Shown here: in pieces, positions 6,596 through 28,389 of the stretch
Layout of the letters: the number at the start of each line of letters is the position of its first letter
How positions within the stretch are numbered: position 1 is the stretch's first letter
Assembly: GCF_000016745.1 (NCBI RefSeq)
Contig: NC_009483.1
Span: forward strand, 570,001 to 602,000
Direction of reading: 5' to 3'
From: Geotalea uraniireducens Rf4
GTDB taxonomy: Bacteria; Desulfobacterota; Desulfuromonadia; Geobacterales; Geobacteraceae
DNA: 32,000 nucleotides
Translations under genes and position numbers: made by a program
The notes under the pieces: model-generated
The model's input: only the letters and a program-made list of their open reading frames with translations
What the model was told of the DNA's origin: nothing
The model's database searches: none

Positions 6596-6607
6596 AATCT
6601 GAGTCAT

Positions 6608-6633: not shown

Positions 6634-6691
6634 TATTGAGGATGCCAGTATGAGAATACAATCGTCTTTAGTTATAGGTAAGGAGTCAAGT

Positions 6692-10831: not shown

Positions 10832-10850
10832 CTGCTAATTTAATCTGCCT

Positions 10851-10871
10851 GGTTCACCTCATGGGTGGACC
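10851..10871 (+). other. weak intergenic hairpin between cytochrome genes 3 and 4
   Basis: GGTTCACC (10851-10858) pairs with GGTGGACC (10864-10871) with one G-U pair and loop TCATG, followed by GGGTTTC. The U-tract is poor. Confidence 0.25.
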
Positions 10872-10927
10872 GGGTTTCATTCAAATCGTTCCTGTTTGAT
10901 ACAATTCCATTACGAGGTGAAGTCACC

Positions 10928-16907: not shown

Positions 16908-17089
16908 ATGTAGCCTTTAAATTTGCATAAATATGGCCCGTCACTGAGGACATGGAGTCATACAAAGAACTCTCTTAATAATGGCGGTCGGAATAACACA
17001 GAGCGCTAATCTTCAGCCAGATTTTATTCCTTCCCTTGAATGTGAAAACAGAAAGAAATGCCCGGATGTGACATCAAGGAGAATTGCCA

Positions 17090-18334
17090 ATGCTGCACTG
17101 CAATGATTCAGTAAATTTCAAGGTATTGCTGGCAATCCTCATTGTGTCGGCATGTCTGCGGCTATGGGGGGCTTTTGACATTACCGGCTATACGGGTGAT
17201 GAGTCGTTTCATGTGCCGTCCGCCATCAGCTTGGGACAGTATGGCACTCCCCTTTCATCCAACTGGACGCATCCTCCAGCCGGGGCGCTGATTCTGCTCG
17301 GGACGATTACACTCTTTGGCGATAACCCGGTGGGCTGGAGGATTGGCGGCATTGTCTTTGGTACCGTATCAGTGGGACTACTGTATCTGGTTGCTTTCCG
17401 GTTGTACCGCAATGAAATGGCTGCGCTGCTGGCGGCGACGCTGTTGGCGATGGATCCGTTTCATATCTATTTTTCCCGGACGACCTTTATGGAAATCCCG
17501 GTGCTCTGCTTCTTTCTCATGTTTCTCTATTTCATGCTGGAGTACGCAGAAGATGGGAGCAGGTGGTCGCTCCCATTGGCCGGGGTTGCGCTGGGGCTGA
17601 CGGCGGCGACGAAGAGTTATTTTGTCTGCAGCATGCTGTTGGTGATTGGCTATGCCTGGTGGAAAAAGTGGCAGCAAAAGGACGGCCAAGCCACCCATGT
17701 TTTAGATTTTCTCTGCTATTTGCTCTGTCTGCCCGTTGCCATCTATCTTCTTTCCTATTACCACTGGTTCGGCAGGGGATTCACTCTGCAGGAGTTTTTC
17801 CAGATGCGGGGGGATGCGCTGTGGACGTTACGCAATATCACCATTGATTCGTTCGAAAACAAATGGTTCCTGGAGGTGGGGGGGCAGCCGTGGGAGTGGT
17901 TCGTAAAGCCGATAGTGTTTGGTTATCAGTTTGAAACCAACCGCTATCTGCTGGAGATCAATAATTTCCCCATACGGCTGTTTTCGTTGTTCTCGCTGAT
18001 TGCGCTCACTGTCCACGGCTGGCGGAGGCGACTAGCTCCACTCCTTGTGCCGCCGATATTGTTCGCGAGCGTCTACCTGCTCTTCCTCCTGTTGAATCGC
18101 CCCATGTCGAGCAGCTCTGCGCTGGTCGTGCTCCCTTTTGCATATCTTGCCCTGGCCCGGGCGGTTGTGTTGCTGGAGGAACAGTATTGCAGGGCGTGCA
18201 GATTGAGTCTCATCGCTCTCGTATTGATTGTGTTCTGGGAGGCTTACCTCTATCCCCTGGCGACGGGAAGAGTTGTTTCCGACTTTTTATATTCACCGAT
18301 ACTCTCTAGTACAAAAATAATGCGGATGCAGTGA
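17090..18334 (+). CDS. GT-C fold polytopic glycosyltransferase, PMT/GT39-like (polyprenyl-phosphate-sugar dependent)
   Basis: AAGGAGA lies 7 nt before ATG 17090. The protein has many hydrophobic segments. The first-loop motif YTGDESFHVPSA resembles the Asp-Glu motif of protein O-mannosyltransferases, and WTHPPAG resembles their HPPLxK motif. Confidence 0.7.
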   Translation: MLHCNDSVNFKVLLAILIVSACLRLWGAFDITGYTGDESFHVPSAISLGQYGTPLSSNWTHPPAGALILLGTITLFGDNPVGWRIGGIVFGTVSVGLLYLVAFRLYRNEMAALLAATLLAMDPFHIYFSRTTFMEIPVLCFFLMFLYFMLEYAEDGSRWSLPLAGVALGLTAATKSYFVCSMLLVIGYAWWKKWQQKDGQATHVLDFLCYLLCLPVAIYLLSYYHWFGRGFTLQEFFQMRGDALWTLRNITIDSFENKWFLEVGGQPWEWFVKPIVFGYQFETNRYLLEINNFPIRLFSLFSLIALTVHGWRRRLAPLLVPPILFASVYLLFLLLNRPMSSSSALVVLPFAYLALARAVVLLEEQYCRACRLSLIALVLIVFWEAYLYPLATGRVVSDFLYSPILSSTKIMRMQ

Positions 18335-18939
18335 TGAGCCCACGAATTTACACGATTGGCTGTATGATAGTGCTGTTAGCCGGTATTCTTGTTCTTACTT
18401 TGGGATATGGTCCCTTAACTCGGGTGTTTGTTTCGCCGCCACGCTGTGAGGTTGCGGGTTCCTCTGCGGATATCTTTCGGTTTTGGAAGTCCATTGGGGT
18501 AAAAGGACGGGTTGCAGTTGTGTTTACCCGCCGGCTGAATGGTGAGGTGGTAGGCAAAGAAGTAGAATCATCGGTCAAGTATGTTGAGGCTGCCCTGCAG
18601 CAAGGAATGGTGCGGACAGTGTACCATGTCGTGCCTGATGGGGCATGGAGCGAGGTATCGGAGAAACTCTCGCGGATGCCGGGGGTAAGGCCAATTGAGT
18701 CGGGCTTTGCCATCCTGTTCGGCGCCGGGAGGGTGCATGTGCTCCCCTTGTCACACTTCACGCCGATCCAGGAAAAGGCGCTCGTGGTGGTTGCACCAGC
18801 TGAATGGACGATAGATGAATATGGAGTGATTGTCAATTTGATAAAACAGCAGCGGGTTCCAGCGGATCTGCTGGCGGTGCTGCGGGGCTCTGATGCCGAG
18901 GTGGCCAGATTGTGTGAGGCGCTGGCAGTATCCCGATAG
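18334..18939 (+). CDS. hypothetical single-pass membrane protein, translationally coupled to the PMT-like gene
   Basis: The start (GTG 18331 or ATG 18334) overlaps the upstream TGA stop (GTGATG). The product has an N-terminal TM helix (IYTIGCMIVLLAGILVLTLGY) followed by a ~170-aa soluble domain in which I recognise no motif. Confidence 0.6.
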   Translation: MSPRIYTIGCMIVLLAGILVLTLGYGPLTRVFVSPPRCEVAGSSADIFRFWKSIGVKGRVAVVFTRRLNGEVVGKEVESSVKYVEAALQQGMVRTVYHVVPDGAWSEVSEKLSRMPGVRPIESGFAILFGAGRVHVLPLSHFTPIQEKALVVVAPAEWTIDEYGVIVNLIKQQRVPADLLAVLRGSDAEVARLCEALAVSR

Positions 18940-18987: not shown

Positions 18988-20403
18988 TTATGATCGTTTT
19001 TTATCATTACCGGCCAGAATTCCGACCGCGCCACTGAAGAGCCGCCTGAACTCACCAAACGAGCGCAGTTTCTTGAATCGATCCCAGATGATCCGCGGTC
19101 TGAAGAAAAACCTCCTATAGGCTGTGACAGCGTATTCCGAGGCTTCTGCACGCGTAACGCCGGTATCGATGAACTCGATCAACTCATCCTTTGATTCGTC
19201 CAGGGTATACTCCGCCCAGTAATCGCCGAAACCGCGCTTCCAGTAATATTCATATATTTCGGTTTCAGGTTGCGGTAGAAGGATGGAGAAGAGCGCATAA
19301 TCAAGCGGAAGCTTGAGGGCAAAATTAATGGTATCCTCAATGGTCTCGCGGTTTTCACCGGGAAAGCCGAACAGGAAGAAACCAAGCGCCTTGATGCCGC
19401 TTTGGTGGGTGTACTGCACTTTCTCCATGACAAGTTCCGGCGTTATGCCCTTGTTCATCCGTTTGAGAATTTCCGGGTTGCTCGATTCTATGCCATACAT
19501 GATGGTGTGGCATCCAGCGGCCTTCAGGCTGTCGATCATATCCCTGGTAATGACATCCACCCGGCTTCTTACGGTGAACCCGACCTTTAGCTTCCTGCGG
19601 TGAATCTCTTCGCAGATGGCAATGACCCGCTTACGGTCCGCGGTAAAGGTGGAGTCATAGATATCAAAGTCCCGAATGCCGAATTGCTTGAGGTTCATTT
19701 CGATTTCATCAACAACGTTCTGGACTGACCTGGTGCGGTACTTCTGGTGATTATGGTTGCAGAAAGCGCAGTTGAAGGGGCAGCCGCGGGACGACACAAA
19801 GGCGGTGAAATTCTTCCTGCGGGTGAGTATGTTCTCGTAGAGTTCATTTCTTATCAGATGCCGGGCGGGGAACGGTACAGTATCCAGGTCTTCGACGAAC
19901 TGCAGCGTGCGGTCAATGATGACCTCCCCATCTTTTCTGTATCCCAGCGACTTGATTCCTTCATACGGCCGCTTTTCACGAAAAGCCCGGATGAACTCGG
20001 GGAGTGGAAGCTCTGCTTCCCCGATGATGCAGAAGTCGATTTCATTGTGCGACATGGTTTCGAACGGATATATCCTGACGTGCTCCCCGCCGACCATAAC
20101 AGGGATACCAGTATCCTGCTTCAGTTTTCTTATCCATTCCAGGGTCGCGTGAAAACTCAACGTGGTAATCGTGAAGCCAAGCAAGTCAGGTGAAAACCGC
20201 CTGATACGCTCGAGTGCCGCTTCATGGCTGAGCCTTTCGGCCTCCATGTCGATGAGATCGACTTCAACCCCTTCTTTCTCCATGATTGCGGCGACAACCA
20301 GCAGGCTGACGGGCGGAATAAAGCCTAAGCGTTCATCCCTGAAGGCTACCGGCTTGTAGTGGGGGTTGATCCTGTTGGGTGTAAATATGAGGCTGACTTT
20401 CAT
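18988..20403 (-). CDS. class-B radical SAM enzyme (N-terminal cobalamin-binding-type domain + radical SAM core)
   Basis: GGAG lies 7 nt before ATG 20403. The N-terminal Rossmann-like domain (MKVSLIFTP..VSLLVVAAIMEKEGVEVDLIDME..IPVMVGGEH) is followed by SSRGCPFNCAFC (CX3CX2C). It is the last gene of the minus-strand operon. Confidence 0.85.
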   Translation of the reverse strand: MKVSLIFTPNRINPHYKPVAFRDERLGFIPPVSLLVVAAIMEKEGVEVDLIDMEAERLSHEAALERIRRFSPDLLGFTITTLSFHATLEWIRKLKQDTGIPVMVGGEHVRIYPFETMSHNEIDFCIIGEAELPLPEFIRAFREKRPYEGIKSLGYRKDGEVIIDRTLQFVEDLDTVPFPARHLIRNELYENILTRRKNFTAFVSSRGCPFNCAFCNHNHQKYRTRSVQNVVDEIEMNLKQFGIRDFDIYDSTFTADRKRVIAICEEIHRRKLKVGFTVRSRVDVITRDMIDSLKAAGCHTIMYGIESSNPEILKRMNKGITPELVMEKVQYTHQSGIKALGFFLFGFPGENRETIEDTINFALKLPLDYALFSILLPQPETEIYEYYWKRGFGDYWAEYTLDESKDELIEFIDTGVTRAEASEYAVTAYRRFFFRPRIIWDRFKKLRSFGEFRRLFSGAVGILAGNDKKRS

Positions 20404-20454
20404 TGGTGCTCCACTGGCGACTCAGTTCAAAATCTGTATTGATTGGCAAACATA

Positions 20455-21558
20455 CTACATGCGCCTGCGCAGGTCAAAGAGTAGATTCAACTCAGTCTGG
20501 CAGTTGAGGTAGCAGTCGTGGCATTGTGAGGTGATTTCTCTCTGCCGCTGGTAGTCTGGAGAATGCCACAATTCTCCAAGGGTTATGCTCCTGATGTTTC
20601 CGGTTGTCTTTCCCCAGTTGATCCAGGGTACGCAGGGAAATACGTTCCCATAACAGTCAACCGCCAGGGAGTTGTATCCGGCACTGCATCTGACAGGCGA
20701 GGGATGTCCGGCAAACGAGTCGCGGAACAGCCGCAGGTGTGCCGGCGAGTTCTCGATTGCAACGCTGAAGAGCTGTTTTCCCTGCAAATATTCAACGAGT
20801 CTGTCAACTTTGGCAAGCAGTTCAGGTTCAGTCCCGGTCTCCTGCGGTATTGCGGCAAACGGCTGCCGGGGAATGAGTTCGATGCAGTCGGTGCCGAGTG
20901 TGCGGGCAAGGGCAAGCATCTGCGGCACCTCGTCGATGTTGGTCTCGTCGATGACCGCAACGGTTTTTATCCTGACATGGCTGCCGTGTTTCTGTTTGAG
21001 GTTAACGAGTCTTTTAACTGCGCGCACCGCTCTGTCAAATGATCCTTGAGTACGTCTGATCCGGTCGTGGGTGGCTGCGACCGCGCCATCAAGTGATACG
21101 TTGACCGAATCCACGCCGATGTCGATGATTCTCTGCGCCTGATCATCACCCAGCAGCCAACCGTTGGTGTTCAGGTGGGCGATCATGCCGAGCCTCCTGG
21201 TTTCAGTCAGAAGGTCGAAGATGTCGTCCCGCAGCAGAGGCTCCCCTCCCGTAAAGCCGATCCCCGGCACCCCCAGTTCGGCAAACTCATTGATGATCCC
21301 CAAAAAACGGGCGGTATCGAATTCGGTCATGCCGCTTCGGGCCTGCGCAGATGCTTGCAAAGGCATGTCGCACATGGCGCAGTGAAAGTTGCAGCGGTAG
21401 GTGACCATCAGCGTGCCGAGGGCCGGGCCGCACAGGGGGCGATGGAGCGCACCGGAAAGCTGCAACAGGAGATACTGGCGGCATCGCTTGAGCAGCCAGC
21501 CCGGGCCGCTCTCGCGGAGCTTGCGCAGGATCAGATCGCTATAGACCTTTCTGATCAT
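20455..21558 (-). CDS. radical SAM enzyme with SPASM/twitch-like C-terminal Cys-rich domain (paralog C)
   Basis: It carries YRCNFHCAMC (CX3CX2C) and FTGGEPLL. The C-terminus has CSAGYNSLAVDCYGNVFPC (CX12GX4C) and CHDCYLNC (CX2CX3C). Its start overlaps the upstream stop as ATGA (21555-21558). Confidence 0.85.
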   Translation of the reverse strand: MIRKVYSDLILRKLRESGPGWLLKRCRQYLLLQLSGALHRPLCGPALGTLMVTYRCNFHCAMCDMPLQASAQARSGMTEFDTARFLGIINEFAELGVPGIGFTGGEPLLRDDIFDLLTETRRLGMIAHLNTNGWLLGDDQAQRIIDIGVDSVNVSLDGAVAATHDRIRRTQGSFDRAVRAVKRLVNLKQKHGSHVRIKTVAVIDETNIDEVPQMLALARTLGTDCIELIPRQPFAAIPQETGTEPELLAKVDRLVEYLQGKQLFSVAIENSPAHLRLFRDSFAGHPSPVRCSAGYNSLAVDCYGNVFPCVPWINWGKTTGNIRSITLGELWHSPDYQRQREITSQCHDCYLNCQTELNLLFDLRRRM

Positions 21559-22622
21559 CGATTTTTTCCTTTCAGCTGAAGCAGATTCGCCAGGATGGTC
21601 TGATATGCCTCGCAGGGGGTCCAGCAGCCGGGGCAGGCGTCATCATGGACTTGCTTCCTCGTGTGCAAACGGATCGGGGAGCGCCAGATGCGGTAGAGGT
21701 CCATATCGTTCTCACTGAGCGACCCCAGCAGGGAGGCAAAACCGGAACAGGGGAAGACATTGCCTGTCGGGTCGATGAAGCATGAAGCGGCGGCTGCCTG
21801 GCAGGTGAGGGGCACCGTGCCGTCCTTGAGGTATATTCGTGCCAGTTGCTGATAACGCCGTTCGATAAAGGCAATCGGGCTGAATGGTTTGTGCCGACGC
21901 TGCGTGTTGATACGGACGAGCAGCCGGGATGCTTCGGCAGGTTCGGGTGTGCCATCAAACGTGTTGTTGCCGTAGTAGAGCCCGGACACATGGGCAAGGT
22001 TGATATGGAGGTCGTCAGCGGACAATGCTCCCAGCTCTTCACGGCAGGCGGCAAATGTCTTGTCGAATTCACCCAGGTTGGCCACCTGCAGGGTGTGCCC
22101 GAGAAAAACCGAAAAACGCCGGGATCGCCGTTCCCGTAACTGCCGGAAGGTGCCCAACGCCCGATCCCAGCAGCCGGGCAGGTTGCGGATGCGGTCATGA
22201 AGCTCGCGTGGACCATCAAGGCTCACTGAGACGATCAGGCGGGGGAGAGCGGTCTGTTTCAGTATGGCATCGACGGCTGCAACGATCTCTTCGGTCTGAA
22301 AACCGTTGGTGGGAAAATTGAGCAGGTACAGGTCGCGGCTCCTCTGGATGACCGTGAGGAAGATGTCGCTGATATCGGGGCGCTGGAACAGCTCGCCACC
22401 GGTCAGGTTGATCCAGGAGAAGCGGTTGGCCCGGGTGAAAAGGGCATCTATCTCTGCCAGCGTCAGTTCGTTCTCCGCAGGTTTTCTCCAGATATCGCAC
22501 ATTGTGCAGCGGGCCTGGCAGCGGTTTGTTACCGCGTAGGTCAGGCGGTAAGGACGGGGAAGTTCGCGCAGATTACTATGAGTTATTCGATACGCTAGTC
22601 GTGCAATCCGCTGCATGCTCAT
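21555..22622 (-). CDS. radical SAM enzyme with SPASM/twitch-like C-terminal Cys-rich domain (paralog B)
   Basis: It carries TNRCQARCTMC (CX3CX2C) and LTGGELF. The C-terminus has CQAAAASCFIDPTGNVFPC (CX12GX4C) and CPGCWTPC (CX2CX3C). ATG 22622 forms an ATGA overlap with the GT9 stop, whereas the longer ORF start at 22673 would overlap GT9 by 55 nt. Confidence 0.85.
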   Translation of the reverse strand: MSMQRIARLAYRITHSNLRELPRPYRLTYAVTNRCQARCTMCDIWRKPAENELTLAEIDALFTRANRFSWINLTGGELFQRPDISDIFLTVIQRSRDLYLLNFPTNGFQTEEIVAAVDAILKQTALPRLIVSVSLDGPRELHDRIRNLPGCWDRALGTFRQLRERRSRRFSVFLGHTLQVANLGEFDKTFAACREELGALSADDLHINLAHVSGLYYGNNTFDGTPEPAEASRLLVRINTQRRHKPFSPIAFIERRYQQLARIYLKDGTVPLTCQAAAASCFIDPTGNVFPCSGFASLLGSLSENDMDLYRIWRSPIRLHTRKQVHDDACPGCWTPCEAYQTILANLLQLKGKNR

Positions 22623-23839
22623 GCGTCTGATCCTCCCAGCTTTGTCAGACGAAAGGGGGCTTGCGGAGCGCAATAGGCACCCTCAATTGCCGCAAATGTG
22701 TCTTCGACAGTAAGTGCCAGCATACAGGCGCCACGCCCATCGGGATGCCGGCAGGTGTTGATCTTGGCGTTAAAGTTGGTGATGCAGGGACTGCAGTCGT
22801 ACCCAGCGAAGAGCGCCAGACCATTCCTGCCCCATGGGCCGTACAGATGGGGTGAGTTGGGGCCGTACAGGCCGACCACCGGGGTGTTGACCGCAGATGC
22901 GAGATGGACGGCGGCCGTATCTGCCGATATCACCAGATCTGACACAGTTATAAGCGCAAAATAGTCGGTAAAAGACATTTGCCCCCCGAGATCGATGACC
23001 CGCTCAGGTTTTTTCAGCCTTTGCCAAGTTTCACGGGTCAGGAATGCTTCCTCCGGCAGGCCGGTCAGGATGACCCGTATGCCGCACTGTCCGGTCAGGA
23101 GGTCGGCAAGTGCAGCATACCGTTCCGGTGGCCAACGACGTTCCCGGAAGTTATCACTGGTGCCGATATGCATTATTACAACCGGTTCTTCAGGTGAAAT
23201 ACCGAGTTCGACCAGAAAGCGCCGCCCTGTATCGCGCAGCATTTTCAGGGGGCCAAGCTGAACTTCGGGTGAAAAGAGGGTGGCGACGCCGGCTCCCATG
23301 GCAAGAGCGTAGAACGAGCGGGTGATGTGGATATCGTTGTCATAGGCGATGGTGCGGGTGTAGAGGTGGTGGCGGTGCTGTCCACGGGTTTCAAAACCGA
23401 TGGTTTGTCCAGCACTGATCTGATGAGTCAGCAGGGCGGAAAAACGGGCGAACTGCTCGAAGTCAACAATCAGGTCGTAGCGGTTGTGGCGAAGAAGCGT
23501 CGCTGCAAGTCGCCAGGTACGGAGGAAGAGATCGGGGCTGCGGGTGTCAAGAGTGACTATGTCGTCAACGGCGCCGGTCATGGCCAGGGCTTCACGATTG
23601 TTTTCAAGTGTCAGAAAGTCAATGGTCGCGCCCGGCCAAGTCGATCGAATTGCCTGAATTGTGGGGAGCAGCATGAACAGGTTGCCGATGCCCCAGAATT
23701 TTATCAGCAGGATCCGCCTGGCAGTAGAATTATTCAGGCTAAACGGTTCACGATGCCGGAACAGTGCGAGATTTCGAAAGCACCAGATCAGTGGAATTCC
23801 GATACAGGCGTCTATGATGCGGATCAGTTTCCAGTTCAT
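22619..23839 (-). CDS. glycosyltransferase family 9 (ADP-heptose:acceptor heptosyltransferase-like)
   Basis: ILLIKFWGIGNLFMLLP, RRWPPERYAALADLL and ISADTAAVHLASAVNTPVVGLYGP resemble the conserved GT9 N- and C-domain motifs. A C-terminal Cys349-X2-Cys352-X10-Cys363-X8-Cys372 cluster is present. The start forms an ATGA overlap with the GT2 stop (23836-23839). Confidence 0.8.
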   Translation of the reverse strand: MNWKLIRIIDACIGIPLIWCFRNLALFRHREPFSLNNSTARRILLIKFWGIGNLFMLLPTIQAIRSTWPGATIDFLTLENNREALAMTGAVDDIVTLDTRSPDLFLRTWRLAATLLRHNRYDLIVDFEQFARFSALLTHQISAGQTIGFETRGQHRHHLYTRTIAYDNDIHITRSFYALAMGAGVATLFSPEVQLGPLKMLRDTGRRFLVELGISPEEPVVIMHIGTSDNFRERRWPPERYAALADLLTGQCGIRVILTGLPEEAFLTRETWQRLKKPERVIDLGGQMSFTDYFALITVSDLVISADTAAVHLASAVNTPVVGLYGPNSPHLYGPWGRNGLALFAGYDCSPCITNFNAKINTCRHPDGRGACMLALTVEDTFAAIEGAYCAPQAPFRLTKLGGSDA

Positions 23840-24891
23840 GATGGCGGCTCACCAGCAGGGCCTTTTTGTTGTCTGACAACAAGCGGGATGACTCCTGCCG
23901 GACGGTTTGAGTAGAAGCGTTTTAAGTTCGGCTCAATTCCCACAAGAGCGAGGATTTGGCCGATGGTTGTCCCCAGGTAGCAGAGCAGTATGGCTGCCAG
24001 TGTGAGCGGTATTTCCCGTATTGATATACAGGCTTGTGCCGCCATAACAGCAGCGACTGCAAGGTTGATAAAAGCAAATATCATGGACGCTAACATACTT
24101 CCGGCGCTGCACATTTCGTACACGAAAAGGGCAAGAAACAGCCCCAGCCAGCCTAGAGGCAGGTACAGTGCCACGTTGAAGCGGTTGAACTGTCGCTTGC
24201 CGATGGCGACCGAACCATGGCCGTAAGTGATCCGCTGTAGCAAAAAGGGTATCCACAAGGAACGGTTGTGGTGATATACGATAACGTCCCGATGAAAATA
24301 GATCCGCTTTCCGGTTTCCCGGATACGGTCACATAGGTTGCGGTCTTCGCCGGTGAAAAGTGTTTCGTCAAAGCCTCCCAGAGTATCGAAGGCATGTCGG
24401 GACAGTATCAGGTTGCATGAGTGCAGACTGGAGCAATCTCGGCTCGCGGAGAGCTTTTTTGCGAAATGGAGCGGACCGGATACCAGGAATGTCTGCTGTG
24501 CATTCCCGACGACCCTCTGCAGCAGCGGTTCATCCGGTGGGGTGATATTGGGGCCACCAACGGCCCAGACGTCAGGGTGGTTGGCAAGGTATGCAACCCC
24601 GTTTTTCAGCCAGTTAACGTCGGGGTAGGCGTCGGAATCAATAAGGGCAAAATAGTCTGCACCGCTGAAATGGCGAATGGCGATGTTCCGTTTAGCAGCA
24701 ATGGTGAGGTCGCCGGTGACAATGATGGAAATGTTGTCGTGTAGAAACTCCGGCGGGAGAGAAACGGGCTGGTCTGGCAGCAAAATGATGTGAAATTGGG
24801 GATAGTCGAGTGCTTGGCACTCTTTAAGGCATTGGAGCAGATATTCGTTCATTGAGACGAACGGTATGACAATAACGCAACTCCCGTTCAT
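23836..24891 (-). CDS. glycosyltransferase family 2 with C-terminal transmembrane helices
   Basis: It has a GT-A start (CVIVIPFVSMNEY), an IDSDAY (DxD-type) motif, FTGEDRNLCDRI, a QxxRW-like LLQRITYG and 3-4 C-terminal hydrophobic helices. ATG 24891 forms an ATGA overlap with the upstream stop, whereas the longer ORF to 24969 would overlap by 82 nt. Confidence 0.8.
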   Translation of the reverse strand: MNGSCVIVIPFVSMNEYLLQCLKECQALDYPQFHIILLPDQPVSLPPEFLHDNISIIVTGDLTIAAKRNIAIRHFSGADYFALIDSDAYPDVNWLKNGVAYLANHPDVWAVGGPNITPPDEPLLQRVVGNAQQTFLVSGPLHFAKKLSASRDCSSLHSCNLILSRHAFDTLGGFDETLFTGEDRNLCDRIRETGKRIYFHRDVIVYHHNRSLWIPFLLQRITYGHGSVAIGKRQFNRFNVALYLPLGWLGLFLALFVYEMCSAGSMLASMIFAFINLAVAAVMAAQACISIREIPLTLAAILLCYLGTTIGQILALVGIEPNLKRFYSNRPAGVIPLVVRQQKGPAGEPPS

Positions 24892-26036
24892 GCTAGCTCT
24901 TTCAACGTGTTGAGTGCCAGGCTGGGCCAGTATGAAGGTGTTGTCAGGATGTTGACCGTCCAGGCGCATTCAAAGGTGCAGTGACATTTTGTTTTACTTA
25001 TTTCGTGTCGTGCATTTTGGGCACGCTGGCTATTCAAAAGTTTCAGGAAGTTCATTTCGTAGTCTCGCAGGTTTCCCAGCGGCATCCTCTCTGTTAACAG
25101 TTCGCACGGTGCTACGGTGCCGTCAGCAGTGATAGTCACGAAGAGAGAGCCTGCCTTGCATGGCGATATGAAGCGTGGATTGAGGCATGAGTCATGCAAA
25201 ATGCGATGGGATATCCGCTTTTTTGCACGGTGTAAGGCACGGGTGAATTCTCCCGGTGCAGCAGAACCTGTTTCTTCCGTCAGCCGGGTCAGTTCTCGGT
25301 ATGCAGACGCCAGTTTCTGTTTGTTCGCGATAGAGTTCTGAACACCTTCCTCGCGCAGCATGATCGGGGATACTGTGTTTATACCAGTCTGCTGCAGGCG
25401 GTGGTATATTTCGGTGATAGTGTCAGCGTTTTCCGGTGTGACAGTCAGTGCGATATCAGCATTGATACGCGGATCTTTGCATGCGGCGACAGCTCGGTAT
25501 GATTCAATGGCATGGGCATAGAGCCCCGCTAATTGCCTTCCGGAATCATGTTTCTGCTCGATGTTATCGATTGAGATCGAAATCGTAAGGCTGCATGGGG
25601 TGTCAAGGCGTGAATAGCGTTTGAGAAGCGTTCTGATCGCATCGGTAAACCAGCCGTTGGTGGTAATGACAATTGAACGGACAGGTGTGTGCTGAATATA
25701 GCAAGAAACGATGTCGAACAGGTCGTCCCGGAGGAATGGCTCACCGCCGGTCAGGTTGACATTGTAGAGAGTTTTACCCAAGTTCCGGGCGAGTCGTACG
25801 ATCTCGTCAAGCGCCAATTCATTCGCACGGTCTATTGGGGTACTGAAATCAATGAAGCAGTGTTTACACCGGGCATTGCATCTAGTCGTCACGAAGTGCA
25901 CAACGCTGAATGGTTCGTGACGTTGTATGAATCGATTATGGAGCAATGCTGTAATGTGGGGACGCATGAAGGTATATGTAATTCCGATTGAGTCGAGTAA
26001 AAAAATGCCGTTAATTTGATTTAGATATAGTATCAA
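24888..26036 (-). CDS. radical SAM enzyme with SPASM/twitch-like C-terminal Cys-rich domain (paralog A), first gene of operon
   Basis: It carries TTRCNARCKHC (CX3CX2C) and LTGGEPFL. The C-terminus has CKAGSLFVTITADGTVAPC (CX12GX4C) and CHCTFEC. The start is ambiguous between TTG 26036 and ATG 25967 (MRPHITALL..), and neither has a clear Shine-Dalgarno sequence. Confidence 0.8.
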   Translation of the reverse strand: MILYLNQINGIFLLDSIGITYTFMRPHITALLHNRFIQRHEPFSVVHFVTTRCNARCKHCFIDFSTPIDRANELALDEIVRLARNLGKTLYNVNLTGGEPFLRDDLFDIVSCYIQHTPVRSIVITTNGWFTDAIRTLLKRYSRLDTPCSLTISISIDNIEQKHDSGRQLAGLYAHAIESYRAVAACKDPRINADIALTVTPENADTITEIYHRLQQTGINTVSPIMLREEGVQNSIANKQKLASAYRELTRLTEETGSAAPGEFTRALHRAKKRISHRILHDSCLNPRFISPCKAGSLFVTITADGTVAPCELLTERMPLGNLRDYEMNFLKLLNSQRAQNARHEISKTKCHCTFECAWTVNILTTPSYWPSLALNTLKELA

Positions 26037-26160
26037 AACCGAAGTCTTGCGTACAAGATAATTATCAAAGGTGGAGTGTCTGAATAAAATGCACTCTTCC
26101 TTGCTTATCTTTTTACTATTGTGGTAGTCTTACAGCTCAGTAACCTTTGGATGGAGATTT

Positions 26161-27324
26161 ATGAACGAATTTATTACCCCCCCCGAAGCCGAACCAGAAA
26201 ACGAAGTGTTTCCTGTTGAACCCCGTTATCACCCGGTACATAAAATTCCCCGAAAAATTTACGATTTCTTTGCATCTGCCAAGCTGGCAATGGCTCTGCT
26301 GGTAATTATCCTGGCATGTTGCCTGACAGGGGTTACCATCCTGCGAGGGGCGCGGGCCTGGAGCCTGATCTTTAACACGCTCTGGTTCAATGCCCTGCTG
26401 GTACTGTTGGTGGTGAATGTGGCCTGCTGTTTTTTCGGCAGGATATGGCACAGGAAGCTGACGCTGATTACTTTTGGCATGATCCTGTTTCACCTCAGTT
26501 TTGTGGCGATACTTGGAGGAATCATTTACAACAGCCTGTTCTATTTCAGGGGAAATATCCGGCTGACCGAGGGGGAGGTCCTCCCGAGCGGTGATCCTCA
26601 GAGTTACGATCTGATTGACAAAGGGCGTTTTTTCTCCTTTGCGCGATTGAAGGGCGAGACATCGCTCGTCAAAATGCATGTCGGCTACAAGGTTGCCGGC
26701 GAGGACAAGCGGGCTGCATACGAAGTGGCGGTCGGCGAGGACGGTGACAGGAAGCAGGGTATCATTTACATTACCCATAAGTTGACCCACAAGGGATTCG
26801 ATTACTTCAACGACAAGGAAGGATATTCGCTGCTGGTCACGCTTTCCAACAAGCAGGGGCAGGATCTGTACGGGGCTTATCTGCCGCTGCAGAGCATTCA
26901 GCAGAAGGATGACAGTTACTTGTATACAACCGGTTACAAAGAGGGGGGCTTGGTTAGGGTGGACGCTATTCGGTTTCCGGTTCCTCCTGAGAAGCCACGT
27001 TTTGCCCTGCAGGTTACGTATCAGCCGTCCAAGCTGAAGGAGCGTGGAGGGGATGCGGCGTTCCTGCTTTTTGCGATTGATGAGAAAGGGATGCTGAAAT
27101 CCGACAAGCCAGTTGCCGAAGGAAAGGCCTCCATCGGGGAGCAGTTTGCCGCCGGCGAGTATATCCTGTCGGCCAAGGAGGTGCGTTACTGGGTTGGCAT
27201 GCTGGTGCGCTACGAGCCGGGCAAGCCGATTGTGCTTGCAAGCCTCTGGGTGGGGCTGGCCGGGATGATCATCACGACGATAGGGCGGATGAGGAAAGGC
27301 AAGGCATATGGGAAGGCTTCCTGA
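26161..27324 (+). CDS. ccsB: System II cytochrome c biogenesis protein ResB/CcsB
   Basis: GGAG lies 4 nt before the ATG. FFASAKLAMALLVIILACCLTGVTI (TM1), LWFNALLVLLVVNVACCFFGRIW (TM2) and a His-containing TM3 (MILFHLSFVAILGG) precede a large soluble loop and a C-terminal TM. This is the typical ResB topology and N-terminal signature. Confidence 0.8.
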   Translation: MNEFITPPEAEPENEVFPVEPRYHPVHKIPRKIYDFFASAKLAMALLVIILACCLTGVTILRGARAWSLIFNTLWFNALLVLLVVNVACCFFGRIWHRKLTLITFGMILFHLSFVAILGGIIYNSLFYFRGNIRLTEGEVLPSGDPQSYDLIDKGRFFSFARLKGETSLVKMHVGYKVAGEDKRAAYEVAVGEDGDRKQGIIYITHKLTHKGFDYFNDKEGYSLLVTLSNKQGQDLYGAYLPLQSIQQKDDSYLYTTGYKEGGLVRVDAIRFPVPPEKPRFALQVTYQPSKLKERGGDAAFLLFAIDEKGMLKSDKPVAEGKASIGEQFAAGEYILSAKEVRYWVGMLVRYEPGKPIVLASLWVGLAGMIITTIGRMRKGKAYGKAS

Positions 27325-27561
27325 ACGCGAAAAAATTGACGGATACCAGGAGTTATGTTTAAATGATAAACTTTAGAGCGGACAAGCTGGAACTATGCAG
27401 AAGCAAGCAATAGCACGCAGATAAATTCGGATAGAATCTGATAATATCATGTGTTAGGCCAATAAATACTGGGTTGTAACCCGAAGAAGATTTATACAGC
27501 TTCATTCTTGTTAATGTTTTGTTAATACTGAAGTCATTAATCGCATTTTGGAGGTGAACAA

Positions 27562-28389
27562 ATGAAGCCAGAACTCATGTTGTTTTGGACCGCAGTTTCG
27601 CTGTATGGCATTAGCACCTTCAGCTACATCTTCGGCATGATTGCAAAGCAGGACAAGCTCTTCACCATTGGCCTGTTCAGCGCTGTGGCAGGATTTGTGC
27701 CCCATGTTGCTGTGATTGCCCTGCGCTGGTCTGCGACCGGTATAACTCCTTTCATTGATATTTCCGAATCTCTCACGCTCGGGATATTCATGACGGTACT
27801 GCTGTTTCTGGTGTTCCAGTTCTCCACGAAAAAAGTTCGCCCCCTTGGCGTGTTGGTGATGCCCGTTGCCTTTGTGCTGTTGGGGTGGGCCGGAACGCTG
27901 ATGAAAGAGGTTGCCGCAACCCTGGCGCCTGCTCTGCAGAGCGGCTGGATATGGGTGCATATTGTCGGGGCTTCGGCCGGTTTTGCGTCGGTGCTGATTG
28001 CAGCGGGGCTTGGACTTATGTATCTACTTAAGGAAAATAAATCCGGCGGCATCTATGATAAGCTACCGGATCTTGCAACACTTGATATGTTTTCGTACCG
28101 TTTTGTTGCCGGCGGGTTTATCCTCTATGGTCTGATGATGATATCGGGATGCTTCTGGTCCAACCAGGTCAAGGGGAGTTACTGGGGATGGGATCCGGTG
28201 GAGGTGTGGTCGCTGGTTTCCTGGCTTACCTACGGCATTTATCTGCACCTGCGGGTAACCTTCGGCTGGCGCGGCAGAAGGCTGGCATGGTATGCGCTGA
28301 TTGCACTTATCGCCATGATCGTCAGCTACTGGGGGATACCGTTCACCGTGGAAACATTTCATAGTGGTTTCAGGATCGATCATAAGTGA
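27562..28389 (+). CDS. ccsA: System II cytochrome c synthase subunit CcsA/ResC (heme-handling WWD protein)
   Basis: GGAGGTG lies 6 nt before the ATG. The protein is polytopic and carries the Trp-rich WWD signature WGWDPVEVWSLVSWLTYGIYLHLR with flanking conserved-type His residues. Confidence 0.88.
   Translation: MKPELMLFWTAVSLYGISTFSYIFGMIAKQDKLFTIGLFSAVAGFVPHVAVIALRWSATGITPFIDISESLTLGIFMTVLLFLVFQFSTKKVRPLGVLVMPVAFVLLGWAGTLMKEVAATLAPALQSGWIWVHIVGASAGFASVLIAAGLGLMYLLKENKSGGIYDKLPDLATLDMFSYRFVAGGFILYGLMMISGCFWSNQVKGSYWGWDPVEVWSLVSWLTYGIYLHLRVTFGWRGRRLAWYALIALIAMIVSYWGIPFTVETFHSGFRIDHK

What the first reader, a model, noticed from the sequence alone, without database searches (positions are those of the whole stretch)
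18988..26036. Six-gene ATGA-coupled operon mixing three paralogous SPASM-type radical SAM enzymes, GT2, GT9 and a B12 radical SAM, with no precursor peptide
Seen in sequence: the gene order on the minus strand is rSAM-A, GT2, GT9, rSAM-B, rSAM-C, B12-rSAM. Four consecutive junctions are 4-nt ATGA overlaps (24888-24891, 23836-23839, 22619-22622, 21555-21558) and the last gap is 51 nt, which implies stoichiometric co-expression. The three rSAMs share one unusual C-terminal architecture (CX12GX4C followed by CX1-2CX3C), so they are one subfamily triplicated in a single operon. I found no small ORF that could be a RiPP precursor. Established knowledge: SPASM/twitch rSAMs modify peptides or proteins (anSME, QhpD thioether formation), sugars (BtrN) and tetrapyrroles (AhbC/AhbD/NirJ). 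Class-B rSAMs methylate sugars (GenK-type) or tetrapyrroles (BchQ/BchR) and include the cyclase BchE. GT9 enzymes heptosylate LPS or, in the AAH/TibC family, proteins. Inference: the operon most plausibly builds a radical-SAM-tailored glycan or glycoconjugate. Alternatively it tailors a protein or heme substrate encoded nearby, namely the Cys/His-rich cytochromes. I do not recognise this gene combination as any described pathway.
Basis: partly seen in the sequence, partly recalled or inferred. Interest (0 to 1): 0.8.

Follow-up and report, generated by a model that had tools for sequence, protein, structure and literature searches.

The report
Radical-SAM and glycosyltransferase glycan-tailoring operon
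This is a real six-gene operon made of two widespread but unstudied "sugar-transferase plus radical enzyme" cassettes, which most likely build an unusual sugar decoration for the cell envelope, perhaps for the giant cytochromes encoded next to it.

Summary
Six minus-strand genes (18988-25967/26036) are joined by four ATGA overlaps and one 51-nt gap. Pfam confirms three radical SAM/SPASM enzymes, a GT2, a GT9 and a B12-radical SAM enzyme. There is no room for a precursor peptide.

The "triplicated subfamily" reading does not hold. The three rSAMs are only 22-26% identical. They belong to two ancient cassettes:
- **rSAM_A-GT2:** found together in 7 other loci, from Nitrospirota to Nanoarchaeia.
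- **GT9-rSAM_B-rSAM_C:** at least one of the two rSAMs lies near the GT9 in 58 of 77 loci, across about ten phyla, including archaea and Parcubacteria.

Several lines point to tailoring of a membrane-associated glycan. Fusions occur (GT2-GT9, GT9-methyltransferase, GT2-rSAM). The recurrent neighbours are PMT-like GT-C transferases, a small GT2, epimerases and carbamoyltransferases. One archaeal locus carries a full ADP-heptose pathway. No curated family threshold is met and no paper describing the cassettes was found.

Only in Geobacter and Nitrospirota relatives does the module sit among giant multihaem cytochromes and ResB/CcsB genes. The cytochromes are therefore a plausible but unproven acceptor. 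The chemistry of the rSAM steps is unknown.

The parts
24888..25967 (-). rSAM_A: radical SAM enzyme with a reduced SPASM/twitch-like C-terminus; first gene of the rSAM_A-GT2 cassette. An alternative TTG start lies at 26036.
   Evidence: Pfam Radical_SAM 2.5e-16 and SPASM 2.1e-8. The gene callers start it at the ATG. Orthologs at 39-54% identity lie immediately upstream of, or fused-adjacent to, the GT2 ortholog in L016, L017 and L082-L086. CX3CX2C plus five C-terminal Cys are invariant.
23836..24891 (-). GT2: membrane glycosyltransferase of the NodC/HpnI/MftF-like type, with three C-terminal transmembrane helices.
   Evidence: Pfam Glyco_trans_2_3 and Glycos_transf_2. The best NCBIfam hit is MftF at 106.6 bits against a cut-off of 280. 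Three TM segments lie at residues 240-319. The motifs DSD, GED and QRITY can be read directly in the sequence. It is fused to GT9 in L016 and P0363.
22619..23839 (-). GT9: heptosyltransferase-fold GT-B enzyme of a distinct non-LPS subfamily. It has an N-terminal hydrophobic helix and an invariant C-terminal motif CSPCITN..CRH..G.GxCM.
   Evidence: Pfam Glyco_transf_9 2.2e-30. Invariant residues are listed in alignment A1. The AF2 model has pLDDT 87.5, and its best Foldseek matches are 3TOV, WaaF and WaaC. The family has 661 representatives at E<=1e-30, and 144 of the top 150 keep CSPC.
21555..22622 (-). rSAM_B: radical SAM/twitch-like enzyme and the constant downstream partner of GT9.
   Evidence: Pfam hits. 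An rSAM_B-type gene lies directly after GT9 in most loci. The AF2 model has pLDDT 91, and its best PDB match is BlsE at TM 0.61. Invariant Cys are C35/39/42 plus C274, C292, C330, C333 and C337.
20455..21558 (-). rSAM_C: radical SAM/SPASM enzyme and third member of the GT9 trio, with eight conserved non-core Cys.
   Evidence: Pfam Radical_SAM 9.6e-23 and SPASM 6.4e-11. Orthologs reach 45-77% identity. The best PDB sequence hit is BlsE at 4e-19. Cys conservation is shown.
18988..20403 (-). B12a: B12-binding (class B type) radical SAM enzyme, an accessory tailoring gene.
   Evidence: Pfam B12-binding 1.6e-25 and Radical_SAM 1.3e-27. The best NCBIfam hit is HpnJ at 189.7 bits against a cut-off of 577.6. 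Orthologs at 69-76% identity lie downstream of the trio in Geobacterales loci. The best PDB hits are 9CCB and AprD4.
17084..18334 (+). PMT_2-type GT-C membrane glycosyltransferase. It is convergent with the operon and is the probable periplasmic transferase of the system.
   Evidence: Pfam PMT_2 1.7e-17 and PMT 3.7e-16. At least 7 TM segments are predicted. In L005-L007 and L018 its ortholog follows rSAM_C directly on the same strand. Its profile is homologous to the membrane domain of the TPR proteins that accompany the trio elsewhere (hhalign 93%, E 2.9e-7).
18331..18939 (+). 202-aa single-pass membrane protein of unknown family. Its start overlaps the end of the PMT_2 gene and it always travels with it.
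   Evidence: No Pfam or NCBIfam hit. One N-terminal TM segment is predicted. Orthologs at 26-38% identity follow PMT_2 in L005-L007, L016 and L018, twice in L007.
25968..26160 (.). AT-rich divergent intergenic region between rSAM_A and the ResB-like gene; the presumed promoter region of the operon.
   Evidence: Sequence read directly. The only promoter-like match here is on the + strand at 26062-26090, and the number of matches is not above the shuffled expectation. This is positional inference only.
26161..28389 (+). Context: ResB-like gene (26161-27324) and CcsB (27562-28389), a system II cytochrome c haem-lyase pair.
   Evidence: Pfam ResB 4.1e-14 and Cytochrom_C_asm 1.9e-31; NCBIfam CcsB 169.3 bits against 187.6. 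These genes lie within 10 kb of the GT9 trio in about 10 Geobacter and Nitrospirota loci only.
185..15418 (+). Context and candidate acceptor: four multihaem CxxCH/CxxxxCH cytochrome genes. Three are giant; the last carries four 95-aa Ser/Thr-rich repeats.
   Evidence: Translations. Pfam/NCBIfam GSu_C4xC__C2xCH and Cytochrome_C7. Repeats are shown. CxxCH-rich giant ORFs lie beside the trio in L001, L005, L006, L008, L010, L012 and L018.

Best explanation
**What the operon is**
The operon is the cytoplasmic, membrane-face part of a glycoconjugate pathway. It combines two conserved cassettes, each pairing a glycosyltransferase with its own radical SAM enzyme or enzymes, plus a B12-radical SAM enzyme.

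**Proposed steps (all inferred)**
1. The three-TM GT2 puts a first sugar on a membrane lipid acceptor, either a polyprenyl phosphate or another lipid.
2. rSAM_A modifies that sugar by H-atom abstraction. The outcome could be epimerisation, oxidation, deoxygenation or C-C bond formation.
3. The membrane-anchored GT9 adds a heptose-type sugar from an ADP-linked donor.
4. rSAM_B and rSAM_C tailor the product further. The B12 enzyme then C-methylates or rearranges it.
5. The lipid-linked product is flipped across the membrane. The adjacent PMT_2-type GT-C enzyme, with its 202-aa partner, uses it to decorate a periplasmic or extracellular acceptor.
6. In this lineage the acceptor is plausibly the neighbouring giant multihaem cytochromes. 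I put that sub-claim at about 0.35-0.4.

**Shown versus inferred**
Shown: the domain identities, operon structure, cassette conservation, fusions and neighbour families. Inferred: the donor, the acceptor, the order of steps and the rSAM chemistry.
For: **Operon and domains:**

**Conservation of the cassettes**
- The GT9 subfamily lies beside at least one SPASM rSAM in 58 of 77 loci, and beside both types in 46. The loci span Desulfuromonadota, Nitrospirota, Omnitrophota, Planctomycetota, Myxococcota, Parcubacteria and archaea.
- The rSAM_A-GT2 pair recurs in L016, L017 and L082-L086.
- L082 has the same five-gene order as the window.

**Fusions**
- GT2-GT9: L016 (763 aa) and P0363 (748 aa).
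- GT9-methyltransferase: L048.
- GT2-radical SAM: L084 (636 aa).

**Neighbour genes**
- PMT-like GT-C proteins occur in 31 of the 47 core loci of at least 12 kb. Most have C-terminal TPR repeats, and hhalign links them to the window PMT_2.
- Other recurrent neighbours are a small Dpm1-like GT2, methyltransferases, NAD epimerases, carbamoyltransferases, GT1/GT4 and exosortase EpsH/EpsI.

**Donor**
- The GT9 keeps the donor-site DT..H and RRW residues.
- In Altiarchaeota locus L054 a family member sits with GmhA, GmhB, two HldE kinase genes, an HldE adenylyltransferase, transketolase and transaldolase.

**Membrane placement:** the GT2 has three TM helices and the GT9 has an N-terminal helix.

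**Nearest solved rSAM:** for both rSAM_B and rSAM_C it is BlsE, a sugar-nucleoside enzyme.

**Cytochrome link**
- The module stays within 10 kb of giant cytochromes and ResB/CcsB in several different gene orders.
- A preprint reports glycosylation gene clusters (GT2, GT4, GT39, TPR proteins, methyltransferases) next to OmcE and resB/ccsB in Desulfuromonadia. It also reports putative glycan density on G. sulfurreducens OmcE (bioRxiv 10.1101/2025.10.22.684050).
Against: - No enzyme here has a characterised ortholog. All family hits fall far below the curated cut-offs.
- The similarity to BlsE is weak (TM 0.61, about 19% identity). Peptide-modifying SkfB, CteB and anSME score almost as well, so fold does not separate sugar from peptide substrates.
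- The position of the HepI catalytic Asp13 is an invariant Asn in the GT9. Transferase chemistry is therefore not assured.
- The window encodes no flippase, no nucleotide-sugar genes and no ADP-heptose genes.
- The cytochrome association is limited to two phyla and could reflect a shared genomic island.
- The preprint does not mention radical SAM genes.
Confidence: 0.58

Rival explanations
1. The end product is a membrane glycolipid or a secreted polysaccharide, not a protein glycan. The GT2 glycosylates a membrane lipid, as HpnI or ceramide glucosyltransferase do. The rSAM and B12-rSAM enzymes then remodel the head group, for example by ring contraction to a cyclitol as HpnJ or calditol synthase do. 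The cytochromes are only neighbours.
For: - The GT2 belongs to the NodC/HpnI-like group (PF13632), and some homologs also hit PF13506, the ceramide glucosyltransferase family.
- The best NCBIfam hit for B12a is HpnJ, over its full length.
- The rSAM_A-GT2 cassette sits in an exosortase EpsH/EpsI locus (L085) and beside LPG_synthase_TM in a nanoarchaeal locus.
- Most loci have no cytochrome.
Against: - The HpnJ score is 190 against a cut-off of 578. There are no hpn or shc genes in the window.
- PMT-like GT-C enzymes with TPR domains, the most frequent partners, are typical of transfer to protein or envelope acceptors.
- In Geobacter and Nitrospirota the link to cytochromes persists through rearrangements.
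Confidence: 0.17
2. The rSAM/SPASM enzymes are protein or peptide maturases. They would form thioethers or other crosslinks, or modify Cys, in the neighbouring Cys/His-rich cytochromes, in the invariant Cys loop of the GT9 itself, or in a peptide encoded elsewhere. The glycosyltransferases would then glycosylate the modified protein.
For: - The SPASM family is dominated by peptide and protein maturases. NCBIfam hits to StsB, PapB, WgkB, MftC and SkfB score about as high as the others.
- SkfB, CteB and anSME are among the top fold matches.
- The cytochromes are adjacent.
- The GT9 has an invariant, flexible motif CSPC..CRH..GxC next to its constant rSAM partner.
Against: - There is no precursor ORF and no room for one.
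- There is no PqqD/RRE hit, and only 30-56 residues precede CX3CX2C.
- rSAM_A and rSAM_B keep only five auxiliary Cys.
- The cassettes occur in loci without cytochromes and are fused to GT2.
- All curated maturase cut-offs are missed by more than two-fold.
Confidence: 0.12
3. This is an LPS inner-core or lipid A modification operon. The GT9 would be an ordinary LPS heptosyltransferase and the PMT_2 enzyme an ArnT-like lipid A transferase.
For: - The best sequence and structure matches of the GT9 are WaaC, WaaF, WaaQ and 3TOV.
- PMT_2 weakly hits ArnT.
- The likely host is a diderm.
Against: - All heptosyltransferase equivalog cut-offs are missed: 108 against 170, 95 against 135, and 90 against 185.
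- The catalytic Asp13 position is an invariant Asn. The N-terminal helix and the CSPC loop are absent from the solved LPS heptosyltransferases WaaC and WaaF that it aligns to.
- The subfamily occurs in archaea and Parcubacteria, which lack LPS.
- The window has no other LPS core genes.
Confidence: 0.07
4. The operon tailors haem or another tetrapyrrole for the CxxxxCH cytochromes. The rSAMs would act like AhbC, AhbD or NirJ, and the B12 enzyme like BchE, BchQ or BchR.
For: - NirJ, NirJ2 and AhbD are the top NCBIfam names for rSAM_A and rSAM_C.
- BchE is the second hit for B12a.
- ResB/CcsB and unusual cytochromes are adjacent.
Against: - The scores are 70-153 bits against cut-offs of 480-650.
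- This reading gives no role to two glycosyltransferases and a GT-C enzyme.
- The cassettes are conserved in DPANN archaea, Parcubacteria and Omnitrophota loci without cytochrome or haem genes.
- Fusions are to GT2, GT9 and a methyltransferase, never to haem enzymes.
Confidence: 0.04

Closest known systems
LPS heptosyltransferases WaaC/WaaF/WaaQ and the Veillonella GT9 3TOV (CAZy GT9)
   Same: They share the Pfam family and the GT-B fold, and are the best sequence and Foldseek matches. The donor-side DT..H and basic residues are conserved. In L054 the family is genomically linked to ADP-heptose synthesis.
   Different: The window GT9 misses all equivalog cut-offs. The Asp13-equivalent position is Asn. 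It has an extra N-terminal helix and an invariant CSPC..CRH..C loop. The subfamily occurs in organisms without LPS. It always travels with radical SAM genes.
Sugar-tailoring twitch/SPASM radical SAM enzymes of antibiotic pathways (BlsE, BtrN, DesII, AprD4)
   Same: BlsE is the nearest solved relative of rSAM_B and rSAM_C by both sequence and fold. DesII and BtrN also match the rSAM_B model, and AprD4 matches B12a by sequence. Like them, rSAM_A and rSAM_B have a reduced auxiliary Cys set. The partners are glycosyltransferases.
   Different: Identity is under 20% and TM-scores are at most 0.61. The known enzymes act on soluble secondary-metabolite intermediates in actinomycete clusters. Here the context is envelope-type glycan machinery with GT-C enzymes, across many phyla.
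Protein O-mannosylation systems (PMT/GT39, TMTC-type GT-C with TPR, plus a Dpm1-like GT2 donor synthase)
   Same: The window gene 17084-18334 passes the Pfam PMT and PMT_2 thresholds. An acidic pair (D39, E40) is invariant in its orthogroup alignment A4. The accompanying TPR proteins have a homologous membrane domain. Small Dpm1-like GT2 genes recur nearby.
   Different: It is far below the NCBIfam protein O-mannosyltransferase cut-off (20.7 against 800). The donor here would be a radical-SAM-modified sugar, possibly a heptose. The acceptor is unknown.
Hopanoid side-chain pathway HpnH-HpnI-HpnJ (rSAM, GT2, B12-rSAM) and mycofactocin MftC-MftF (rSAM/SPASM plus GT2)
   Same: The enzyme classes are combined in the same way. 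HpnJ is the best named hit for B12a, MftF for the GT2, and MftC is among the hits for rSAM_C.
   Different: All scores are two- to three-fold below the cut-offs. The window has no hopene cyclase or hpn genes and no mftA or mftB. The GT9 has no counterpart in either pathway.
Glycosylation gene clusters beside OmcE nanowire and resB/ccsB genes in Desulfuromonadia (bioRxiv 10.1101/2025.10.22.684050)
   Same: The genomic logic is the same: extracellular multihaem cytochromes, a beta-propeller protein, ResB/CcsB, and then GT2, GT39, TPR and methyltransferase genes (one search compared).
   Different: The cytochromes here are giant CxxxxCH/CxxCH proteins, not OmcE. The preprint does not mention radical SAM or GT9 genes. 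No glycan has been characterised in either case.

Membership tests
LPS heptosyltransferase (WaaC/WaaF/WaaQ equivalogs, GT9) | Score at or above the curated NCBIfam cut-off of a heptosyltransferase equivalog | tested here: not met
   TIGR02201 scores 108.3 against 170.2, TIGR02195 95.5 against 134.6, TIGR02193 90.3 against 185.3, and RfaQ/RfaC/RfaF 64-85 against 437-569.
LPS heptosyltransferase (WaaC/WaaF/WaaQ equivalogs, GT9) | GT9 fold with the ADP-heptose donor site | tested here: met
   Pfam PF01075 at 2.2e-30. Foldseek gives 3TOV, 1PSW and 2GT1 at E 1e-18 to 1e-21. D307, T308, H312 and R234-R235-W236 are invariant and align to the WaaC donor site.
LPS heptosyltransferase (WaaC/WaaF/WaaQ equivalogs, GT9) | Catalytic Asp at the WaaC Asp13 position (its role as base is recalled from the literature) | tested here: not met
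   WaaC G12-D13 aligns with the invariant G52-N53. In a rough motif scan of the top 150 relatives, the position after G-x-G was Asn in 63 and Asp in 6.
LPS heptosyltransferase (WaaC/WaaF/WaaQ equivalogs, GT9) | Confined to LPS-producing diderm bacteria | tested here: not met
   Family members occur in Altiarchaeota, Pacearchaeota, Woesearchaeota, Methanocaldococcus, Methanosarcinales and Parcubacteria contigs.
Autotransporter protein heptosyltransferases (TibC/AAH, BAHT) | Detectable sequence or structural similarity to TibC | tested here: not met
   TibC is absent from the phmmer search (E<=0.001), from the profile search (E<=1) and from the top 50 Foldseek matches.
Autotransporter protein heptosyltransferases (TibC/AAH, BAHT) | Four-Cys metal finger (recalled for TibC) and an adjacent autotransporter substrate | tested here: inconclusive
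   An invariant set C349, C352, C363, C372 plus H365 exists, but its equivalence to the TibC finger could not be aligned. The window encodes no autotransporter.
RiPP / protein-maturing rSAM-SPASM maturases | Precursor peptide gene in or beside the operon | tested here: not met
   All ORFs of 20 aa or more overlap the large genes, and the gaps are 48, 51 and about 124-193 nt.
RiPP / protein-maturing rSAM-SPASM maturases | RRE/PqqD-like leader-binding domain, or a separate RRE protein | tested here: not met
   No PqqD or other RRE Pfam hit was found. CX3CX2C starts at residue 30 (359-aa form), 35 and 56.
RiPP / protein-maturing rSAM-SPASM maturases | Canonical seven-Cys SPASM motif (two auxiliary clusters) | tested here: inconclusive
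   Pfam SPASM passes its threshold in all three. rSAM_A and rSAM_B conserve only five Cys (CX17C...CX1-2CX3C), while rSAM_C conserves eight. Cluster content is not testable here.
Haem d1 / alternative haem rSAMs (NirJ, AhbC, AhbD) | Curated equivalog cut-off and neighbouring nir or ahb genes | tested here: not met
   The best scores are 78-113 bits against cut-offs of 500-650. The window has no nir or ahb genes.
Hopanoid side-chain enzymes (HpnH, HpnI, HpnJ) | Curated equivalog cut-off and hpn/shc gene context | tested here: not met
   HpnJ scores 189.7 against 577.6 and HpnH 36 against 225. There is no squalene-hopene cyclase or other hpn gene in the window.
Mycofactocin system (MftC, MftF) | Curated cut-offs and the mftA/mftB genes | tested here: not met
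   MftF scores 106.6 against 280 and MftC 105.3 against 265. There is no small precursor or RRE gene.
PMT-type GT-C glycosyltransferases (GT39/GT83-like) | Pfam PMT/PMT_2 above the gathering score, a polytopic membrane topology and a conserved acidic pair | tested here: met
   PMT_2 scores 64.6 against 26.1 and PMT 59.9 against 22.7. At least 7 TM segments are predicted. D39 and E40 are invariant in A4. Placing this pair in the first extracytoplasmic loop is inference from the TM prediction. The curated protein O-mannosyltransferase and ArnT equivalogs are not met, and the acceptor is not testable.
Class B (cobalamin-type) radical SAM enzymes | N-terminal B12-binding domain followed by a radical SAM core | tested here: met
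   PF02310 at 1.6e-25 (residues 25-137) and PF04055 at 1.3e-27 (residues 204-362). No specific equivalog is met. Cobalamin use is not testable, and AprD4, one of its closest solved relatives, is recalled not to use cobalamin.

The most novel reading that the evidence does not exclude
Glycosyltransferase-radical SAM cassettes (GT9-rSAM_B-rSAM_C and rSAM_A-GT2) may define a widespread, undescribed way of building prokaryotic surface glycoconjugates. In it, lipid-linked sugars, including a heptose, undergo radical C-H chemistry such as epimerisation, deoxygenation, C-C crosslinking or carbocycle formation. PMT/TMTC-like GT-C enzymes then transfer the product to the acceptor. In Geobacter and Nitrospirota relatives this machinery would be dedicated to decorating giant extracellular multihaem cytochromes and would influence their stability or assembly. 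A more radical variant, at about 0.05-0.1, is that the GT9's invariant Cys loop is itself the substrate of its partner rSAM, as a sulfatase is for anSME.
Probability: 0.3. Interest if true: 0.8.

Novelty: new variant of a known kind. Interest (0 to 1): 0.62.

Why it matters
Radical SAM tailoring of sugars is known almost only from antibiotic pathways. Here the same enzyme classes are tied to glycosyltransferases in envelope-type glycan clusters across about ten bacterial and archaeal phyla. The GT9 subfamily has 661 representatives at 50% identity with E<=1e-30. No member has been characterised, no curated family exists, and no description was found in the searched literature.

Working out the chemistry could reveal new sugar structures in cell-surface glycoconjugates. 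It would also explain what a heptosyltransferase-like enzyme does in organisms without LPS.

In metal-reducing bacteria it would make a current question directly testable: whether and how extracellular cytochromes are glycosylated, and whether that matters for electron transfer. The experiment would be deletion of the conserved trio in a cultured carrier, Geobacter metallireducens, whose GT9 ortholog is protein ABB30828.1.

Tried and rejected
- **Curated families.** NCBIfam scans of all six proteins and nine neighbours gave no equivalog for any operon protein.
- **TibC-like protein heptosyltransferase.** This idea was prompted by the C-terminal Cys4 loop. It was rejected as a membership claim because TibC did not appear in the sequence, profile or fold searches.
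- **Recent triplication of one rSAM.** Rejected: pairwise identity is 22-26%, and each rSAM has its own orthogroup.
- **Hidden precursor peptide.** Rejected on ORF and gap analysis. The window has no Rfam element.
- **Promoter and terminator scans.** The number of matches was at the shuffled background, so they were uninformative.
- **Long rSAM or GT9 ORFs as fusions.** Long ORFs in GC-rich Planctomycetota loci were checked. Most are start-codon over-extensions with no extra domain. Only L016 and L048 are genuine fusions.
- **dN/dS against sister contigs.** The operon differs at only 2-9 sites per gene, too few to be informative.
- **Pfam on the membrane domain of the TPR proteins.** This was mostly negative, and profile-profile comparison was needed.
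- **Literature.** Ten searches were run, covering Geobacter with radical SAM and heptosyltransferase, SPASM with GT9, twitch epimerase with heptose, archaeal heptosyltransferase, guessed Gmet locus tags, and SPASM with polysaccharide. None found a description of these cassettes. Only the OmcE preprint gave relevant context.
- **Host organism.** It could not be assigned. The window matches metagenome contigs at 97.7-99% identity, and its proteins are about equally close to Geobacter and Nitrospirota MAGs.

Full report
**1. Observation**

The region 18988-26036 holds six co-directional minus-strand ORFs. I verified the four ATGA stop/start overlaps at 24888-24891, 23836-23839, 22619-22622 and 21555-21558, and the 51-nt gap before the last gene.

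Pfam assigns the domains as follows:
- Radical_SAM+SPASM to three ORFs, here called rSAM_A, rSAM_B and rSAM_C.
- GT2 to 23836-24891.
- Glyco_transf_9 to 22619-23839.
- B12-binding+Radical_SAM to 18988-20403, here called B12a.

Every small ORF in the region overlaps a large gene, and the only gaps are 48, 51 and about 124-193 nt. A cluster-encoded precursor peptide is therefore excluded. The window has no Rfam element.

Three corrections apply:
- rSAM_A most likely starts at ATG 25967 (359 aa). This is the start chosen by the metagenome gene callers, and it fits the ortholog lengths.
- The three rSAMs are only 22-26% identical to one another.
rSAM_C has three further conserved Cys.

**2. No known pathway**

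No operon protein reaches a curated NCBIfam cut-off. The best names score as follows:

| Protein | Best named hits | Bits | Cut-off |
|---|---|---|---|
| rSAMs | NirJ, AhbD, StsB, MftC | 56-113 | 265-650 |
| GT2 | MftF | 107 | 280 |
| GT9 | heptosyltransferase III | 108 | 170 |
| B12a | HpnJ | 190 | 578 |

The nearest solved relatives are distant:
- rSAM_B and rSAM_C: BlsE. rSAM_A: SkfB and CteB. B12a: 9CCB and AprD4. GT2: none.
- The AF2 model of rSAM_B (pLDDT 91) matches BlsE at TM 0.61. SkfB, CteB, MoaA, anSME and DesII follow closely. Fold alone therefore does not tell sugar substrates from peptide substrates.

**3. The GT9 is a distinct subfamily**

Features seen in an alignment of 27 orthologs:
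- An invariant C-terminal motif CSPCITN(F/Y)N.K...CRH..G.G.CM, comprising C349, C352, C363, H365 and C372.
- A conserved N-terminal segment. In the model it forms a helix at residues 4-25, and it is moderately hydrophobic.
- An invariant Asn53 where WaaC has Asp13.

The donor-side residues DT..H and RRW are kept.

By sequence and fold it is closest to 3TOV, WaaF and WaaC. TibC never appears.

A full HMMER scan of 1.84 billion representatives gives 661 relatives at E<=1e-30, and 144 of the best 150 keep CSPC.

**4. Distribution and synteny**

A pattern scan of GTDB species genomes returned 74 loci. They come from Geobacter and other Desulfuromonadota, Nitrospirota, Omnitrophota, Planctomycetota, Armatimonadota, Myxococcota, Parcubacteria and several archaeal groups. 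Many of these organisms have no LPS.

At the ORF level, counting three further loci:
- The GT9 has at least one of the SPASM rSAMs beside it in 58 of 77 loci.
- Both the B-type and the C-type rSAM are present in 46.

The orthologs of rSAM_A and the GT2 form a second cassette:
- It is inserted between rSAM_B and rSAM_C in L017.
- rSAM_A lies directly upstream of a GT2-GT9 fusion in L016.
- It stands in the window's exact five-gene order in a distant Nitrospirae genome, L082.
- It occurs as an adjacent or overlapping rSAM_A-GT2 pair without any GT9 in a nanoarchaeal locus, an Omnitrophica locus, an unassigned locus and an Acidiferrobacteraceae-type locus. The rSAMs there are 39-44% identical to rSAM_A over their full length.

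B12a has 69-76% orthologs downstream of the trio in Geobacterales loci.

The operon is therefore a composite: [rSAM_A-GT2] + [GT9-rSAM_B-rSAM_C] + a B12-rSAM. It is not a triplication.

**5. What travels with the cassettes**

Clustering the neighbouring ORFs and Pfam scans give these recurrent partners:
- The commonest partner is a polytopic membrane protein of about 550-700 aa with C-terminal TPR repeats: 57 genes in 29 loci.
- Its membrane domain is homologous to the window's PMT_2 protein (hhalign probability 93%, E 2.9e-7). The alignment includes the acidic motif and a GxNPxG motif.
- Counting all PMT-like GT-C families, 31 of the 47 core loci of at least 12 kb contain one.
- In four Nitrospirota loci the PMT_2 gene and the 202-aa membrane protein follow rSAM_C directly on the same strand. 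In the window they are convergent with the operon.
- Other recurrent neighbours are B12-rSAMs, a small Dpm1-like GT2, class I methyltransferases, NAD epimerases and carbamoyltransferases (with SxtJ). GT1/GT4, Asn synthase, YdjC and an exosortase EpsH/EpsI pair appear in individual loci.

Gene fusions tie the enzyme classes together:
- GT2-GT9: L016 (763 aa) and P0363 (748 aa).
- GT9-methyltransferase: L048 (712 aa).
- GT2-radical SAM: L084 (636 aa).

In Altiarchaeota locus L054 a family GT9 sits beside GmhA, GmhB, two HldE-kinase genes (both above cut-off), an HldE adenylyltransferase, transketolase and transaldolase. That is a complete route to ADP-heptose in an organism without LPS.

**6. 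The cytochrome context**

The window also encodes the following:
- Four multihaem CxxCH/CxxxxCH cytochrome genes, three of them giant. One carries four Ser/Thr-rich 95-aa repeats.
- A PD40 beta-propeller protein.
- A ResB-like/CcsB haem-lyase pair.
- A lipoprotein.
- A second B12-rSAM.

CxxCH-rich giant ORFs and ResB/CcsB lie within 10 kb of the trio only in Geobacter and Nitrospirota loci, about 8-10 of them. There the association survives several different gene orders.

A 2025 preprint (bioRxiv 10.1101/2025.10.22.684050) reports two relevant points:
- In Desulfuromonadia, OmcE nanowire clusters next to resB/ccsB are followed by 15-70 glycosylation genes. These include GT2, GT4, GT39, TPR proteins and methyltransferases.
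- G. sulfurreducens OmcE shows extra density interpreted as glycosylation.

The preprint does not mention radical SAM or GT9 genes.

**7. Interpretation**

The best-supported reading is a membrane-face glycoconjugate pathway.
- **Shown:** two GT-rSAM cassettes, their fusions, and a GT-C partner.
- **Inferred:** the GT2 and GT9 act in sequence on a lipid-linked sugar, with an ADP-heptose-type donor for the GT9. The rSAMs and the B12 enzyme perform radical tailoring. The GT-C enzyme transfers the product to a periplasmic or extracellular acceptor.

That the acceptor here is the neighbouring cytochromes is plausible (about 0.35-0.4) but rests only on conserved co-localisation and the preprint's context.

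The rivals are:
- a glycolipid or polysaccharide end product;
- protein or peptide maturation by the rSAMs;
- LPS core or lipid A modification;
- haem tailoring.

Each is weighed in its own entry. The last three are disfavoured for these reasons:
- The cassettes occur in lineages lacking LPS, and in loci with no cytochrome or haem genes nearby.
- There is no precursor peptide and no RRE domain.
- All curated thresholds are missed.
- Fusion partners are always glycan enzymes.

**8. Limits**
- No member of any of these orthogroups has been studied, and no rSAM chemistry can be assigned.
- The Asn at the WaaC Asp13 position leaves the GT9 mechanism open. One possibility, by inference only, is an anionic acceptor such as a phosphate.
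- The role of the Cys loop is unknown.
- The host organism of the window is unassigned. The window is 97.7-99% identical to metagenome contigs.
- Synteny counts rest on my own ORF calling and BLAST assignment, and many contigs are short.

**9. Verdict**

The finding is a new variant of a known kind. Radical-SAM sugar tailoring and GT-C-mediated glycosylation are both known, but this combination, its breadth and the non-LPS GT9 subfamily were not described in anything I could search.

Noticed in passing
window 2750-6595 and 6650-10831: Two adjacent giant cytochrome genes carry 3 and 4 copies of a 597-nt (199-aa) unit that are 94-100% identical. A further pair, 3146-3445 and 7103-7402, is 98% identical. 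This indicates recent duplication or gene conversion, and repeat copy number may be mis-assembled. The long antisense ORFs 3197-5431 and 7154-9697 are by-products of this repetitive GC-rich coding sequence.
   Followed up: partly
window 11613-12749: Four tandem 285-nt (95-aa) Ser/Thr-rich repeats, 80-88% identical, lie in the N-terminal half of the third giant cytochrome. They are a conceivable O-glycosylation target, but this was not tested.
   Followed up: no
window 27562-30266; L006, L007, L009, L016, L018, L082: A second B12-radical SAM gene (28929-30266) and a 160-aa lipoprotein travel with CcsB. The B12 enzyme is 80-87% identical in Geobacter and Nitrospirota loci, as conserved as the haem lyase itself or more so. 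A B12-rSAM linked to cytochrome c biogenesis has no obvious known role.
   Followed up: partly
window 18988-30266 compared with L079 and L081: The six-gene operon is 99.1-99.8% identical in nucleotide sequence to sister metagenome contigs. The flanking genes are much more diverged: CcsB 91.8%, B12b 89.8% and the 202-aa protein 94.4%. This mosaic pattern suggests recent recombination or a sweep of the operon.
   Followed up: partly
L004, L020, L024, L025, L028-L030: In Omnitrophota and Planctomycetia-labelled MAGs the GT9-rSAM trio sits inside a housekeeping block of genes, by Pfam DAP epimerase, DHDPS, DapB, an aminotransferase, HPPK, pantoate ligase and aspartate dehydrogenase. It is accompanied by a methyltransferase and a PMT_2-like membrane protein, with no cytochromes.
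   Followed up: partly
L054 6224-16339: An Altiarchaeota contig encodes a complete ADP-heptose pathway (GmhA, GmhB, two HldE kinases, an HldE adenylyltransferase) plus a split transketolase and a transaldolase, next to a CSPC-type GT9 and a methyltransferase. This points to heptose glycoconjugates in an archaeon.
   Followed up: partly
L084 1149-3059; L016 8927-11218; L048 9037-11175: Natural fusion proteins occur: GT2-radical SAM (636 aa), GT2-GT9 (763 aa; also P0363 at 748 aa) and GT9-methyltransferase (712 aa).
   Followed up: yes
GT9 profile A1 and model m6c2cd033194a: After the bacterial GT9 enzymes, the next best PDB matches are the chloroplast NDH subunit PnsB1 (7WFF, 7EU3/7F9O, 9GRX). 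This is a GT9-like fold in a photosynthetic complex.
   Followed up: no
window about 30610-32000 (+), running off the end: Sister contigs annotate a LuxE-type acyl-protein synthetase (492 aa) directly after the second B12-rSAM, followed by a CopD-like gene. The gene is cut by the window end, so it is not in the ORF list.
   Followed up: no
window 15507-16907: A PD40 beta-propeller protein with an N-terminal hydrophobic segment lies between the cytochromes and the PMT_2 gene. Its best NCBIfam hit is TmcD, at 99 bits against a cut-off of 440. It is conserved beside ResB in Nitrospirota loci, which recalls the beta-propeller lipoproteins reported in OmcE clusters.
   Followed up: partly
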